Made by a program: the position numbers. Positions 48,001 through 54,000 of a stretch of 64,000 nt of DNA are shown in pieces; positions within the stretch are counted from its first letter, which is position 1, and each line of letters starts with the position of its first letter. The DNA is from a bacterium. Its GTDB lineage: Bacteria; Zixibacteria; MSB-5A5; GN15; FEB-12. Location of the stretch: assembly GCA_043811375.1 (NCBI GenBank), contig JBDRNJ010000064.1, positions 72,749 to 136,748 on the forward strand, given 5' to 3'.

Positions 48001-51000
48001 CGACCGGTTGCAGCGACACCGTCGAGCACTACGTGGCACGACGCAGTTTACCCATTACTTCGGGTGGCTGCTCTCATCGTAATCGGTCTGGTGGCGGGAT
48101 TCGGTACATCACTATGGTTTGAGGATAAGCCGGCACGCGTGGTTTCGCAATATGTGACGCTGTCATCACCGGCAGACTCCGTTAGCCGGTATGCTGCATC
48201 AGATGCAACTGATATATCATCGGACTATTACAGGCATATGTTACAGGATATTAAGTAAATCCTTCCATATCAACTGTATGTCGTCAAACAAAGTGAACAT
48301 GACGGTGTTGCAAGTTATTATGCGGACCATACAAGACGAGTTTCTATAAGGACTCGCCTCGACTGAAGTCATTGCGCAGCATATGATTCACTCCAGTCAG
48401 CCAGTATCTGTTGTGGGAGTTTGGGCTGCTAAAAACCGGTGTAACGGATTCTGTCTACTCTAATAGAGAATCAGACTGTCGAACCAATGGCAGCTGACAG
48501 AAAGGTGACTTTATTTATTCTTCTTTTCTTTTTTCGATTGTCGTTTTTCCTTTGGACTGCGCTGGGCCTTTTTCTGTTGTTCCCTTTTGCCCTTATCTTT
48601 CTTTCCTTTATCACCCATATTTGTTTCTCCGTGTTTGAAATTGACTTGAGCCGGCCATGGTGGGTTTCTTTTTGTTCTTATATTATGCCAAAGCCGTACT
48701 CCAATAACAATATATACAGGTGGTGTTTGCGAATGGCAACAAAAAAAACTGGCCATCCCCTGGGTCGAAAATCGATGCGGGCCTTACGAGACGAGTTTCT
48801 AAAAAGCATTACCTCGATTGAAGTCATTGTGCGGCAGACGATATACTCCAGTCAGCCGGCATCTGTTGTGGGAGTTGGGGTTGCTTAAAATCGGTGTGGC
48901 GGATTCTGTCAACTCTAATAGAGCATGGATTACTTGTAATGCTGCCGAATGAACTCCTCGGTCTCCGGCAAACCTCCCTGGAGGATGAGGTAACCGTTAT
49001 GCGGCTCACGCTCCGTGATTTCGTGATTGACGGGGTGTCGCATCATGCGCATGACTTCGTCATGGTCATCGGTGTGACCGAGCACCCAGCATAATTTCAT
49101 TAAAGCCGTCTCCGGGAGCATGTTGTCAAGGGGTATTACGCCGATGTCGAGCAGGTCACGTCCGGTGTCATAAACATACATCTGAGTAAATCCCCAGAGA
49201 GTTTGCACGGTCATAACAACGTGAACTCCATTGTCAATGGCCTTTTTCAGGGCTGGATAGAGCGGCTTATTGACATGGCCAAGACCGGTGCCCGCGATAA
49301 CGATTCCCCGGTAGCCTTTCTCCACGTATGCGTCAACCAGGTTCGGGTTCATGCCCGGATAGTAATAGAGGATGGAGACGTGATCATCGTATACGGGGTC
49401 GATGACAACCTTGCGTTGCCGGTCACGCGACAGGTAGTCGTCCGTGAGATATTTGAACTTATCGTTGTGGACAATACAGAGCGGGATATCTCCTAACGTC
49501 CGGAACGTGCTGCGATATGAACTGTGCATCTTACGACACCTTGTTCCACGGTGGAGCAGCCCATATTGATCCGACGTAGGGCCGAACATGCAGATCTGTA
49601 CTTCCGCAATGTCGCCGTGGGCAGCCGCGTTCACGGCGTGAATCAGGTTGATTGCGGCGTCGCTACTCGGTCTATCAGAGCTCCGCTGACTGCCGACTAT
49701 GACAATCGGGACGGGGCTATTCTGAACCATGAACGTCAGTATGGCGGCGCTATGGCCCATTGTATCGGTGCCGTGGCCGATAACGATGCCGTCAGCACCG
49801 GCTTCGATTTCCTCGCCGATCGATTTGGCCAGAGTGATATATTGCTGTGCCGCCATGTTCTCGGAAAATACTCCGAACAGCTTTATTGTTTTCAGGTTGC
49901 AGATATTGGCCAGCTCCGGAACCGCGCCGTACAGTTCGCCGGGCGAGAAGGCCGGGATCACGGCACCAGTCCGGTAATCCAGACGGGATGCGATTGTGCC
50001 CCCGGTTCCGAGGAGCGTTACATTTGGAAAATCAGGATTCCGTGGAAATTCCTTTTCCGGGATTTTATAAATCGCCTCCTTGCGTCCGAGCTCCTCTATC
50101 TTACGAATGCGGTTCACGTTTACGCCGACGTTATAACCGTTTTTCATTTTGATCACGATGTATTTGTCGTTGTGAGATCCGCTACGCGGCAATATGACTC
50201 CATTGAAGATACTACCAGCGTCATTGGTTACGCTCACGTCGCTCCAAACTCTTACACCCCATTCACTCAATTTTCTTCGGGCGAGGCCGGTGTAACCTTT
50301 TAACTCGTCTTTTTCCTGTCCCATATCATTTACATTCAGTGATTCCCTGCGGCTTACTTTCAGCATATTGCCGGAGTTTTTGTTCGATAACTTCATTTAC
50401 TTCCCTGCCCGGTACAATGCCCCTGAGATCAGGCATGACACATCCCATAAGGAACCTGATACGTCCTTCGCAATGTTCAGAGCGCCAGTGATGTTTTTCA
50501 TCGGCCAGTATTAAATCGATCTTTCCAGCCCAGTCCGGAACATTCTCTGCCGGAGTGACTTCATCTATCAACTTGTTAAGCGGTTTCTGTGGATCGTCGG
50601 CCATGCGCATTACCAGCCGCTTCCAGGCATCGAGGATTACAGGCCTGATTGCCACAAGGCGGAATAACTCACAACATCTTTCCTTCGAGATATTGCCCGG
50701 AACAGATGATTTGCGATTTAATCCTTTCAGTTTTTCGCCGAAAAAGAAACATGCTTGCCTGAGATCAGCCCCGGCTTCCTCGACAACGAGGTCCACCAGT
50801 GCGGCCCCGCCTCTCCGGATGAGGTAATGAATAGTGCTGAGGGGAACGCCGACAGCACTGTATTCCGCTTCCCTAACCCACGGTGGTGGCGGCAGGTCGG
50901 CGTTGAGTCTCTCAACACGGTCACGTGTAACTTCGATTGGCGGGCTGTCCGTATCCGGATACATGCGGTCGGGTCCTGGAAGGATACGCTCGAAATCGGT

Positions 51001-54000
51001 GCTCCCGTCCTCGAAAGGCTGGCGCGTTTCATTTGGCACCCCGTCAATAGCATCCTCGTAACGAATGCGGATCTCCTCCACCGCTGTTATTGTGTCCTGC
51101 AGAGGTCCCCATACCACCACGAGCGAATCATCGGTGTTAAGGCCAATTTCTTTTACGAACGATTCCAACTCGGTATCCGAATCCTCGTATTCAGGCCACT
51201 GCTCGCAGTGGACCAGTATGGGCGGTTCATCGAGGGCGGCGATTACCCTTATCCGTCCCGCAAGCTCATCGGCGAACGTACGGTTCGGCTGGGTCGGCCA
51301 TGCGAGTGTACCGGCGAGCCCGGTCAGTCTCACTGCTCGAACGCAGAAATTTCCCTCGCCGCATGCCAGCTCAGGTAGTTCCATCTTTGCGACCCTCTTT
51401 TCCCAGTGTTCCTTCCTGAGAAACGGCAGCTTAGATTTGGAACACAAAGAGGTGACGTCTGCATGAGTGATTTTGATATCTTCAGGCGCCTTGAATCCGC
51501 GCCTGTTGAGGTCATCCCTTAACTCGAGGAGGTTCTTCTGGCGCACGGCCTCGCCGTGGACAAGCTTCTTAGCCCAGCCGGCACGCGGGACACCCTTGAT
51601 TTCCACCCGCCGACCACCGCGAATCGATACGTTAACGTCCTGCCTGCTCGCACCGATGCCTGTCCTGACGTGCCCGGTGCTCCTGCAGACTCGTCCGATA
51701 AGAAGGATCGCCTCCACGACTTCTTCGGGTGTCCGCAGGTCCGGACCCGTAACCGTCTCGATCAGCGGCATGCCGAGGCGGTCGGTTCGCCAGACGATGA
51801 GATGCCCCTGGTCGGAAACCTCACGGCAGCTGTCTTCCTCCATGCTGACCTGCAGAATCGAAAGTTCCCTGCCACGGAAGGGAAGCCTGCCGTTTACCCC
51901 CACGATGGTAGTCCTTTGGAATCCGGTCGGAATCGAGCCGTCAAGATACTGCTTGCGGGCGATATGGACCTCATCGACTATGTCGCATCCAAGCATGAGG
52001 CACTGTTCAATAGCAATATCCAGAGCCTTCTGGTTCACGAGAAACGGCGGCGTGTCATCCATCTCATAGGTGCAAACGTTGCTCTCATGTAGAAGGTACA
52101 TAATATTCTTTTTGGTTTTGAACTCCATGAGAGCCGTTCCGTCGTATTCACCGAACTCCGACAGCGTCGGCCTCATGTGACGTATTAATATGCCGTCATG
52201 TTCCCTGGTGTAAACGCCCGCGGGACACCGACAGAACATCTTGTGCACCGTGTCCAACTGTTGATGGACTTCCAGCCCGGTAATCAGGCCGATTTCAGTA
52301 TAGTCGAGTTCTTCACTCACCATCTTACCAGCAATACTTTAACCGTCTCGAAACCTGCGGCCAGGCCATGCGGTTACGCTCGTGACGTCTTAAGGTAGCA
52401 CTAAGTTCCCTAACCGCAGTGAATACTGTCCGTTATAAGTTTTGAGAGTTGTTTTCTGTTTTTTCGCAGGGACCGTGCAAGGTTTTTATCATTGTATGAA
52501 CGGAGCCTGGAAATGAGTATGTCTATCAGCGCAGGGGGGAACACTCCGAGCTTCTCATACACTTTACGGTTGTCTTCTAGTTTGTCCGCACTCTCGCTGC
52601 AGGAGCAGGGCAGAACAGCGGTTTTGCTTGTCGTTTTTCTGTTCTGAAGGTTCTCGATGCGTTGCATCTGCGCGAGTTCAATTGCCCCTTTGTCTTTAAG
52701 ACCCGACCTCAATGCAACGAGGATGCCCGCGATAGTTAAGTGCACGTTGGCTGAGCCGTCCGGCAGGCGGAATTCGATAGTCTTTCGGTCGATATGTGCG
52801 TTACGCCGGTGCCCTGCTTTCTGGTTTACCACCTCCGCCATCGGCCGTCTGTGCCGCCACCCGAGGGGTACGCGGATAAGTGAACTGCGGTTACCCTCTC
52901 CCCATGTAGCCGTATCGGGAGCTTCCATTCCGGAGAGCAAACGGAGGTAGCTCGTTGGCACGGTGTTGCCGAACGCCGCCAGGCTTGGAGTATGCTTTAG
53001 AAGCCCTCCGATAGAATGGAGGCCTTTTGCGGAAACCTCTCCCGCCTTTGTGAACAGGATGTTGTCCTTGTCTTTCAGAAGTTGGAAGTGAAAGTGCAAT
53101 CCGCTTCCGGCAAGCGTGGTGTCAATTTTCGGGGCAAAGGTGGCGACGAGGTTATACCTGGCGGCAATGTTGCGAACCACCCATTTTCCAATTACGAGTT
53201 GATCGGCCGCTTCAACAGGATCCTTAAGCGTGAATTCGATCTCGTGTTGCTCGCAGAATTTCCCGCCCTCGGACCCGCCTCCAACTTCGGCATGGGCATA
53301 TTTTACACCGATACCGAGCGAAGTAAGCTCATCGATTATTTCGTCCCTGACGTTCTGGAATCGAACGAAGGGCGTGGACTCCTGGTAAAGGGTTTTGCCC
53401 GGTTGACCGGTCCCTTCGCCGGGTCCGATAAGGTAAAACTCGAGCTCCCCGAGGAATCGGGTCGATAAGTTCGTTTCGTGGGCCAGCGCGTTTTTCGCCT
53501 CCATGACGAGGCGATACGGGCAAAGTTCGAACTGACGCTCATCCGCGCCGAAGCATGCGGTCATAAGCACGAGAGTGGGTATACTTGCAAACGGATTTAC
53601 AAAGGCCGTGGAATATCGGGGCACAATGTAGATATCGCTCCTCGTCGAGTTGAGTTGTGGAAAGTGGTTCGAGCCATCCACCCGCTCGCCCATGTCGAGT
53701 ATTTCTTCGAGGCGCGCTTTAGAAGTGATCGGAAAGGTAAGTGTTTTCATCCGCCCGTCACCGGACAGGGGTGATAATGTCAGGAGCCTTAGATTTTTCG
53801 CATAAGCATACCGCACAATGTCCTGTCTCGTAAAATCGCATGGAGGCTTTCCAAGAAACTCAGCGATTGGGTTTGACAGGTTTTTCTTCTTTTTTTTGCT
53901 ACTGTTATTTCTTGCTTTTTTCATGTTTACCAGTCCAACATCAGACACTAACTGCTTCAAGTTTCAGACCTTATTTGGAATATGAAGGATTGTGAAAGTC

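What a model noticed while it worked through the whole genome (the two positions that open the first line are those of the whole stretch)
48930..53924. Archaeal-type GatD/GatE amidotransferase in a bacterium that has GlnRS and no GatCAB
This Zixibacterium encodes the heterodimeric Glu-tRNA(Gln) amidotransferase GatDE, textbook-restricted to Archaea, in an operon with a divergent glutamine-synthetase-like gene (g02115-gatE g02114-gatD g02113). No GatA or GatB is found in six frames, while a GlnRS (g01615) and an AsnRS (g02225) are present. GatD is kept in two thirds of sampled Zixibacteria (often beside GatCAB; in 13 of 61, as here, without it), so it is a lineage trait, not contamination; either tRNA-Gln is charged by two routes or GatDE has another task here.
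Evidence so far: NCBIfam equivalogs: GatD NF003217 500 bits (cut 310), GatE NF003107 465 bits (cut 456); best Swiss-Prot hits all archaeal (GatD 47.6% to Pyrococcus furiosus, GatE 35.8% to Methanopyrus). Family search of the own genome: gatA TIGR00132 no match; gatB TIGR00133 only the gatE gene itself, under the cut. GatD over the cut-off in 41 of 61 Zixibacteria genomes sampled (40 of 60 besides this one). The genes lie on a 137-kb contig among ordinary bacterial genes (sigma factors, CHAT, S8 protease; call 13). Cross-tabulation of the same 61 sampled Zixibacteria for gatA (TIGR00132 over its cut-off, call 140) and gatD: both 28, gatD only 13 (this genome among them), gatA only 17, neither 3.
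(Added by a program. Inside this text positions count along the whole contig: contig position 72,749 is position 1 of the stretch shown here. "Call 12" and the like, gene names such as g00115 and contig names such as C1 are that model's own, and its searches are not shown. The text may have been shortened before it was handed on; [...] marks where a part breaks off. The agent that wrote the report below was given it as the finding of a first reader that could run no searches.)

Follow-up and report, generated by a model that had tools for sequence, protein, structure and literature searches.

The report
Mobile bacterial GatDE amidotransferase beside GlnRS
This bacterium carries intact genes for GatDE, the enzyme that reviews call archaea-only for making glutamine-charged tRNA; the pair belongs to a large bacterial branch of the family, came here from another bacterium, and is probably a spare route beside the ordinary direct enzyme rather than the main one.

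Summary
Observation confirmed: intact gatE and gatD pass NCBIfam cut-offs and keep their catalytic residues. The genome has GlnRS and AsnRS; no GatA or GatB was found. This is not contamination and not a recent archaeal import. All known-bacterial GatE I treed form one clade apart from the archaeal-like ones. gatE occurs in 80 of 121 sampled genomes of this phylum and in many other phyla.

The window's copy is not the lineage's own. Both subunits group with Myxococcota, Acidobacteriota and Fermentibacterota copies (AU p 8e-42 and 3e-6), and the block sits between recombinase-scar-like repeats.

GatDE is never the sole Gln-tRNA route in the sample: 0 of 121 genomes lack both GlnRS and GatB. Host tRNA-Gln has U1-A72, not the A1-U72 that archaeal GatDE reads, and archaeal motif residues are changed across the clade.

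Best reading (0.5): a re-tuned Glu-tRNA(Gln) amidotransferase serving as an auxiliary or repair route, possibly fuelled by asparagine. An Asn-tRNA role (0.2) found no support here. Databases already annotate the clade, and this scan noted it repeatedly on other DNA. My eight literature searches listed no paper on it.

The parts
50326..52323 (-). gatE, 665 aa: kinase/transamidase subunit with cradle, insertion, helical and tail domains
   Evidence: NCBIfam over cut-off; full-length alignment to 1ZQ1 and 2D6F; AlphaFold2 mean pLDDT 92.5; Foldseek top hits 1zq1_C and 2d6f; H20, E162, E189 conserved in both clades
48930..50324 (-). gatD, 464 aa from the probable ATG (longest ORF starts at 50396): asparaginase-type amidase subunit with GatD_N domain
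   Evidence: T134, T210, D211, K289 (488-aa numbering) invariant in 99 of 99 bacterial GatD read from fetched loci
52410..53924 (-). glutamine-synthetase-family gene, co-directional, 86 nt upstream of gatE; not conserved beside gatED; a second GS over the GlnA cut-off lies on contig C13
54270..54297 (-). sigma70-like promoter consensus TTGACA-16-TATATT (11 of 12), about 350 nt upstream of the GS-like gene; pattern match only
   Evidence: 13 sites found against 6.8 +/- 2.9 in shuffles; this is the only 11/12 site
48772..48947 (+). scar-like repeat copy just downstream of gatD (core at 48785)
54760..54812 (+). scar-like repeat core upstream of the GS-gatE-gatD block (core at 54777), same orientation as the 48785 copy
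45235..45739 (+). degenerate 3' tail of a large serine recombinase gene (in-frame stop) ending in the first copy of the repeat
   Evidence: tblastn to an intact recombinase-like ORF on C28, 31% over 140 columns, E 9e-11

Best explanation
A working GatD2E2 tRNA-dependent amidotransferase of a bacterial clade, used as a second, non-essential route to Gln-tRNA(Gln). SHOWN (sequence): both subunits are whole, catalytic residues are kept, the two genes co-occur strictly, and this copy came as a cassette from another bacterium. INFERRED: the host's single GluRS still puts some Glu on tRNA-Gln; GatE binds that U1-A72 tRNA through altered recognition loops and phosphorylates the glutamyl group; GatD releases ammonia from Asn or Gln, which amidates it. 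This would clear mischarged tRNA and keep Gln codons supplied when free Gln is too low for GlnRS, because an asparaginase-type GatD can draw nitrogen from Asn.
For: Mg ligands His15/Glu157/Glu184 of M. thermautotrophicus GatE (PMC2330236) map to H20/E162/E189 and are at least 90% conserved in both clades. GatD Thr/Thr/Asp/Lys motifs are invariant in 99 of 99. gatD and gatE co-occur in 79 of 80 positive genomes, also when unlinked. The insertion domain, reported to dock GluRS and exclude ND-AspRS (PMC2943598), is present and confidently modelled. Of 103 loci screened, 7 hold glnS or gltX near gatE, 3 more a tRNA-Gln gene directly upstream, 4 an adjacent GS gene, against 1 with tRNA-Asn and 0 with aspS or asnS; six of the seven were fetched because coordinates already suggested linkage, and kin are not independent. 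24 of 121 relatives lack GlnRS, so the lineage GluRS can be non-discriminating, and it carries the same Arg at the C36-reading site as the G000 enzyme (93 of 93). All 15 distinct tRNA-Gln(CUG) read have a 4-nt variable loop and 14 have U11-A24, which are tRNA-Glu determinants (PMC9976931). Archaeal GatDE uses Asn and Gln about equally (PMC2330236).
Against: No genome depends on it: 0 of 121 lack both GlnRS and GatB; the one outside case (G141) has two relatives with GlnRS. gatE does not track GatB loss (33 of 47 GatB-less against 47 of 74 GatB-positive, p 0.56); 14 genomes have GlnRS and no amidotransferase; 39 carry all three systems. [quoted passage not shown] The Glu-like tRNA-Gln features also occur in amidotransferase-free genomes G089 and G050, and the G000 tRNA-Gln(CUG) has U11-G24. 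The gatE-GlnRS association (72 of 80 against 25 of 41, p 5e-4) fades in genomes of 3 Mb or more (p 0.09), so genome size may explain it. A canonical GS exists on C13.
Confidence: 0.5

Rival explanations
1. Bacterial GatDE acts mainly, or also, on Asp-tRNA(Asn) and gives tRNA-dependent asparagine synthesis, as GatCAB does in Bdellovibrio.
For: Host tRNA-Asn has U1-A72 like tRNA-Gln. The tail GXXAXGX motif, implicated in rejecting Asp-tRNA(Asn) (PMC2811023), aligns to EGRIRFL here and is not conserved in the bacterial clade. An AsnB equivalog is over cut-off in only 2 of 121 genomes. One locus has tRNA-Asn beside gatE (L077). An earlier scan note proposed this for another phylum.
Against: No swap with the AsnRS-derived candidate Asn synthetase: 19 of 80 gatE-positive against 10 of 41 gatE-negative genomes; in GatB-less genomes 12 of 33 against 5 of 14 have a candidate Asn synthetase. 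AsnRS is in 119 of 121. AspRS has Leu, not His, in 30 of 31 readable gatE+/GlnRS+/GatB- genomes; this marker is recalled and weak, since I recall Leu-bearing enzymes that are non-discriminating. The insertion domain is kept. G000 has AsnB-like genes and the AsnRS-derived paralogue.
Confidence: 0.2
2. The bacterial clade has moved to another substrate or task, for example an aminoacyl-tRNA used outside the ribosome or a tRNA-gated asparaginase/glutaminase for nitrogen recycling.
For: It is kept beside both GlnRS and GatCAB in 39 of 121 genomes. 45 columns are conserved in the bacterial clade but not in archaeal-like proteins, many in the catalytic cradle (for example M50, T63, Y86, D90, Y126, I131, P132, H174), while archaeal Q240 is lost. 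It moves between phyla as a two-gene cassette and is found in larger genomes (median 3.4 against 2.9 Mb), like an accessory gene.
Against: No conserved third gene or pathway neighbour. The recurring neighbours that do exist are Glx genes. The tRNA-binding helical and tail domains are present and folded.
Confidence: 0.18
3. GatDE is the main route here because the GlnRS is non-functional or charges Glu.
For: No GatCAB found; tRNA-Gln has C32-A38/G37 rather than the E. coli GlnRS signature.
Against: GlnRS is whole, 730 bits over a cut-off of 426, and matches E. coli and P. aeruginosa GlnRS at the Gln-pocket Cys, Phe and Gln positions (positions recalled). C32-A38/G37 works with Thermus GlnRS (PMC3927822). 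14 relatives have GlnRS with neither amidotransferase.
Confidence: 0.06
4. A passenger or relic with no current function, or a binning artefact.
For: The block lies between scar-like repeats; codon usage is in the lower range for the genome (7th to 23rd percentile).
Against: Intact frames, invariant active sites and 74-82% GatD identity across phyla; a 137-kb contig with genome-typical GC; a separate cluster at 93% identity in public data (P0004).
Confidence: 0.06

Closest known systems
Archaeal GatDE Glu-tRNA(Gln) amidotransferase (Pyrococcus abyssi PDB 1ZQ1; Methanothermobacter thermautotrophicus PDB 2D6F)
   Same: Two subunits, same domain order and fold (Foldseek E 1e-46), GatD_N domain, GatE insertion domain, catalytic residues.
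   Different: Bacterial host with GlnRS and a bacterial-type GluRS; tRNA-Gln U1-A72 instead of A1-U72; Q240 replaced by P, tail GXXAXGX motif lost, many clade-specific cradle residues; a separate clade with full support; never the sole route in the sample.
Bacterial GatCAB kept beside GlnRS and AsnRS (Bdellovibrio, Deinococcus, Thermus; PMC4206432)
   Same: An amidotransferase retained although both direct synthetases exist.
   Different: There GatCAB makes Asn on tRNA when Asn synthetases are missing; here the enzyme is GatDE and no swap with candidate Asn synthetases was seen. That paper states no bacterium was known to encode both routes to Gln-tRNA(Gln).
Type I L-asparaginase (AnsA family)
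   Same: GatD passes TIGR00519 (363 bits, cut 260.5) and shares the Thr-based motifs.
   Different: Carries the GatD_N domain, scores far higher on GatD models and always occurs with gatE.

Membership tests
GatDE amidotransferase | GatE orthologue with cradle, insertion, helical and tail domains (not GatB) | tested here: met
   NF003107 and TIGR00134 over cut-off, GatB models far under; full-length alignment and fold match. Pfam GAD and Yqey models did not hit at E 0.001, so these domains are diverged.
GatDE amidotransferase | GatD orthologue: asparaginase fold with GatD_N and Thr nucleophile plus Thr-Lys-Asp triad | tested here: met
   the triad is described in PMC2330236, its mapping to these motifs is recalled
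GatDE amidotransferase | Mg-binding His15, Glu157, Glu184 of GatE | tested here: met
   H20, E162, E189
GatDE amidotransferase | D and E subunits occur together | tested here: met
   79 both, 1 gatE only, 41 neither of 121; congruent trees. Binding itself was not tested.
Archaeal GatDE system | Substrate tRNA-Gln with A1-U72 | tested here: not met
   16 of 16 distinct tRNA-Gln read, including both of G000, are U1-A72
Archaeal GatDE system | Tail GXXAXGX motif and KGVQ loop conserved | tested here: not met
   EGRIRFL and KGVP here; Q in 95% of 78 archaeal-like rows, mostly P/A/S/D in the 89 bacterial-clade rows. The role of Q240 is recalled.
Archaeal GatDE system | Host lacks GlnRS and depends on the enzyme | tested here: not met
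   GlnRS present here, in 72 of 80 gatE-positive phylum genomes and in 48 of 50 outside genomes
Archaeal GatDE system | Partner GluRS is non-discriminating | tested here: inconclusive
   The C36-reading Arg is present in 93 of 93 GluRS, including 23 from GlnRS-less genomes, so it does not separate types here
GatDE amidotransferase | Converts Glu-tRNA(Gln) to Gln-tRNA(Gln), not Asp-tRNA(Asn) | not testable with these tools
   needs an in vitro assay

The most novel reading that the evidence does not exclude
Bacteria kept their own GatDE lineage from a very early stage, possibly from LUCA rather than by transfer from an archaeon. It learned to read U1-A72 tRNA independently of GatB and now travels as a two-gene cassette that gives cells a second, asparagine-fuelled route to Gln-tRNA(Gln) beside GlnRS. 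The bacterial clade is deep and well supported, and the GatB-rooted tree neither places it inside a major archaeal group nor excludes that.
Probability: 0.2. Interest if true: 0.8.

Novelty: new variant of a known kind. Interest (0 to 1): 0.55.

Why it matters
GatDE is described as an archaeal signature protein found only in archaea (PMC2330236, PMC2811023, and still in the 2022 review PMC9499178), and the standard account of amidotransferase evolution rests on that. A deep, widespread bacterial clade overturns the distribution claim and reopens the choice between LUCA retention and ancient transfer. It also supplies a natural variant that must read a different first base pair, and it may be the first case of a bacterium with both routes to Gln-tRNA(Gln). 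All of this is testable with recombinant proteins. Against a higher score: the genes are already annotated as GatE/GatD in public databases, this genome is one of hundreds, and the function beside GlnRS is unresolved.

Tried and rejected
Contamination and recent archaeal import: rejected. GatDE as sole Gln route: no case among 121 phylum genomes; G141 lacked both GlnRS and GatB but its two relatives have GlnRS. GatDE as a stand-in for lost GatCAB: no association. GatDE compensating for a missing GS: a canonical GS is present. A conserved third gene: none in 110 loci, of which 30 had only 1.5-kb flanks. GlnRS turned into a Glu-charging enzyme: pocket residues unchanged. GluRS Arg marker and tRNA-Gln D-stem features: did not separate genome classes. 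Riboswitch or T-box upstream: only two Rfam matches far under gathering score in 47500-55600. Rooting with 8 bacterial GatB: unresolved; constrained trees scored higher than the quick free tree (p-AU 0.87 and 0.64). On that 45-row, 452-column set the test of the window copy with two family-type copies gave p 0.059; the smaller full-length sets rejected it. RNA runs: no RNA holder listed. No complex prediction was run, since GatD-GatE would pass by likeness to solved structures. A paper search for the AspRS His/Leu marker returned nothing relevant. Sheppard and Soll 2008 was not available.
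Full report
OBSERVATION. The window holds three minus-strand genes: a glutamine-synthetase-family gene (53924-52410), gatE (52323-50326) and gatD (probable start 50324, end 48930). 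GatD and GatE pass their NCBIfam equivalog cut-offs and fall far below GatB models. The best solved relatives are P. abyssi and M. thermautotrophicus GatDE, aligned over full length. An AlphaFold2 model from a 78-row alignment has mean pLDDT 92.5 and finds 1ZQ1 and 2D6F first. The genome (95% complete, 92 contigs) has GlnRS, one GluRS, one AspRS, AsnRS and an AsnRS-derived paralogue without anticodon domain, and gave no amidase or GatB match. Contig GC matches the genome.

DISTRIBUTION. In 121 genomes drawn from the phylum (this one included) gatD was found in 79 and gatE in 80 (76 over cut-off, 4 contig-edge pieces), both in 79 and neither in 41. In five genomes tested the two genes are unlinked yet both present. 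Classes by gatE/GlnRS/GatB: all three 39; gatE+GlnRS 33; gatE+GatB 8; GlnRS only 14; GlnRS+GatB 11; GatB only 16; none lacks both GlnRS and GatB. AsnRS was found in 119. One GTDB scan confirmed 376 loci; the best 80 lie in Acidobacteriota, Myxococcota, Planctomycetota, Gammaproteobacteria, Riflebacteria and Fermentibacteria. I tested 50 of those 80, chosen mostly for long contigs: 48 have GlnRS and 25 GatB. Protein searches add names from Ignavibacteria, Kapabacteria, Bacteroidota and Eisenbacteria, already labelled GatE by NCBI or JGI.

PHYLOGENY. A 167-row tree splits into 89 rows holding the window protein and every known-bacterial locus included (support 1.0) and 78 rows at about 30-40% identity. 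Of 13 rows of the latter that I looked up, 6 carried an organism name and all 6 were archaeal; the rest are assumed archaeal. A 62-row mixture-model tree gives the split 100% SH-aLRT. The window copy sits in a subclade (100/100) with Fermentibacterota, Myxococcota, Acidobacteriota and Woeseiaceae copies, while same-family relatives form another clade. Forcing it with them is rejected for GatE (p-AU 8e-42) and GatD (3e-6); a shorter 45-row set gave only p 0.059. So the phylum has carried GatDE for a long time, but this cassette is a transfer from another bacterium. With bacterial GatB as outgroup the root is unresolved: archaeal monophyly has support 48, and neither a Heimdall-sister nor a nested position is rejected. 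Transfer from archaea and inheritance from LUCA both remain open.

LOCAL CONTEXT. A short core repeats in one orientation at window 15706, 45577, 48330, 48785, 54777 and 62110 and twice on contig C31. Seven of the eight sites seeded the profile, so only C31:10956 (E 5e-8) is an independent profile hit; the 62110 and C31:22299 sites were first found by BLAST with the 54777 region (E 3e-7 and 6e-9), and a reversed-genome control gave nothing below E 0.26. The copy at 45577 ends a broken large serine recombinase tail (E 9e-11). The GS-gatE-gatD block fills the 6.0 kb between two cores. I infer that it arrived as cargo of a recombinase-built array; the reading of such repeats as recombinase scars comes from an earlier scan note on another contig of this genome. 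No integration event was shown. Codon usage is at the 7th to 23rd percentile of long ORFs. Across relatives only gatE-gatD is conserved.

ANATOMY AND SUBSTRATE. The GatE metal ligands and the GatD motifs are intact, so the enzyme should still couple amide hydrolysis to amidation of an aminoacyl-tRNA. Archaeal GatDE reads A1-U72 and handles bacterial Glu-tRNA(Gln) poorly. All 16 distinct tRNA-Gln read, including both of this genome, have U1-A72. The bacterial clade has lost the archaeal Gln of KGVQ and the tail GXXAXGX motif and has its own invariant residues. The protein is therefore a GatDE by orthology but fails three tests of the archaeal system.

WHICH TASK. For a Gln role: the insertion domain is kept, and among 103 loci screened the recurring neighbours are glnS, gltX, tRNA-Gln and GS genes rather than aspS or asnS. 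That count is biased because six loci were picked for suspected linkage, and gltX lies beside tRNA-Gln in this phylum regardless of gatE. 24 relatives without GlnRS show that the lineage GluRS can charge tRNA-Gln. GlnRS looks genuine. I therefore commit to an auxiliary Glu-tRNA(Gln) amidotransferase (0.5). Its advantage over GlnRS and GatCAB may be the use of Asn as nitrogen donor, which is known for the archaeal enzyme but only inferred here.

LITERATURE. Passages seen: PMC2330236, PMC2811023, PMC2943598, PMC9499178, PMC4206432, PMC3927822, PMC12088422, PMC9976931, PMC5388404 (119, no mention of GatDE). Oshikane 2006 and Sheppard and Soll 2008 were not seen, only passages citing them. Eight searches listed no paper on bacterial GatDE by title or abstract start; the library lacks most subscription journals and I opened no supplements, where such a distribution could be tabulated. 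This scan reported bacterial GatDE many times on other genomes.

VERDICT. Real, and at odds with the archaea-only statement in the reviews read, but one member of a large, database-annotated bacterial clade. New variant of a known kind; interest 0.55. What this window adds is evidence that the cassette moves between bacteria, replacing or following loss of the lineage copy, and a phylum-wide table showing that it is always a spare.

Noticed in passing
window 15706, 45577, 48330, 48785, 54777, 62110 (+); also C31:10956 and C31:22299: Same-orientation scar-like repeat cores that bracket coherent gene blocks (30 kb, 2.8 kb, 0.5 kb, 6.0 kb, 7.3 kb); the core reads like W-R-G-x-R-D-E-F-R-N-W in one frame; a broken large serine recombinase tail lies at 45235-45585.
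   Followed up: partly
window 55328-61866 (+): Sigma-70-family factor, small partner, TPR-CHAT protein (933 aa), subtilase and DUF5666 protein in one block between two scar cores.
   Followed up: no
window 46005-48258 (+): 432-aa exported protein without Pfam or NCBIfam match, ECF-type sigma factor and putative anti-sigma, flanked by 176-nt direct repeats at 92% identity.
   Followed up: no
window 16387-22269 and 39007-44954 (-): Two separate three-gene sets that look like heavy-metal RND efflux systems (judged from translations only).
   Followed up: no
L006:1429-2505 (G000 C6:61446-62522): AsnRS paralogue without anticodon-binding domain, under the archaeal asparagine synthetase A cut-offs; close homologues in 29 of 121 phylum genomes. 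A candidate bacterial tRNA-independent Asn synthetase.
   Followed up: partly
L318 (G085 C1:1506000-1525999) and G085 C1:2815047: A single-contig genome with two similar GluRS genes, one downstream of gatE and next to tRNA-Gln(CUG); gatD lies far away; no GatB found.
   Followed up: partly
L320-L322 (G048, G005, G112): gltX and glnS lie just upstream of gatE-gatD on the opposite strand in three genomes of one family; in L112 glnS follows gatD directly on the same strand.
   Followed up: partly
phylum sample: GlnRS-less genomes all keep the C36-reading Arg in GluRS (23 of 23 read), so this residue does not mark discrimination in this phylum; seven of them (G011, G012, G020, G025, G027, G030, G046) share a visibly different GluRS type.
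   Followed up: partly
G000 whole genome: ARAGORN finds a tRNA-Sec (C9) and three tRNA-Pro(TGG) on C19; no tRNA-Ile(GAT) or tRNA-Ala(TGC) is assembled, in line with missing rRNA operons.
   Followed up: no
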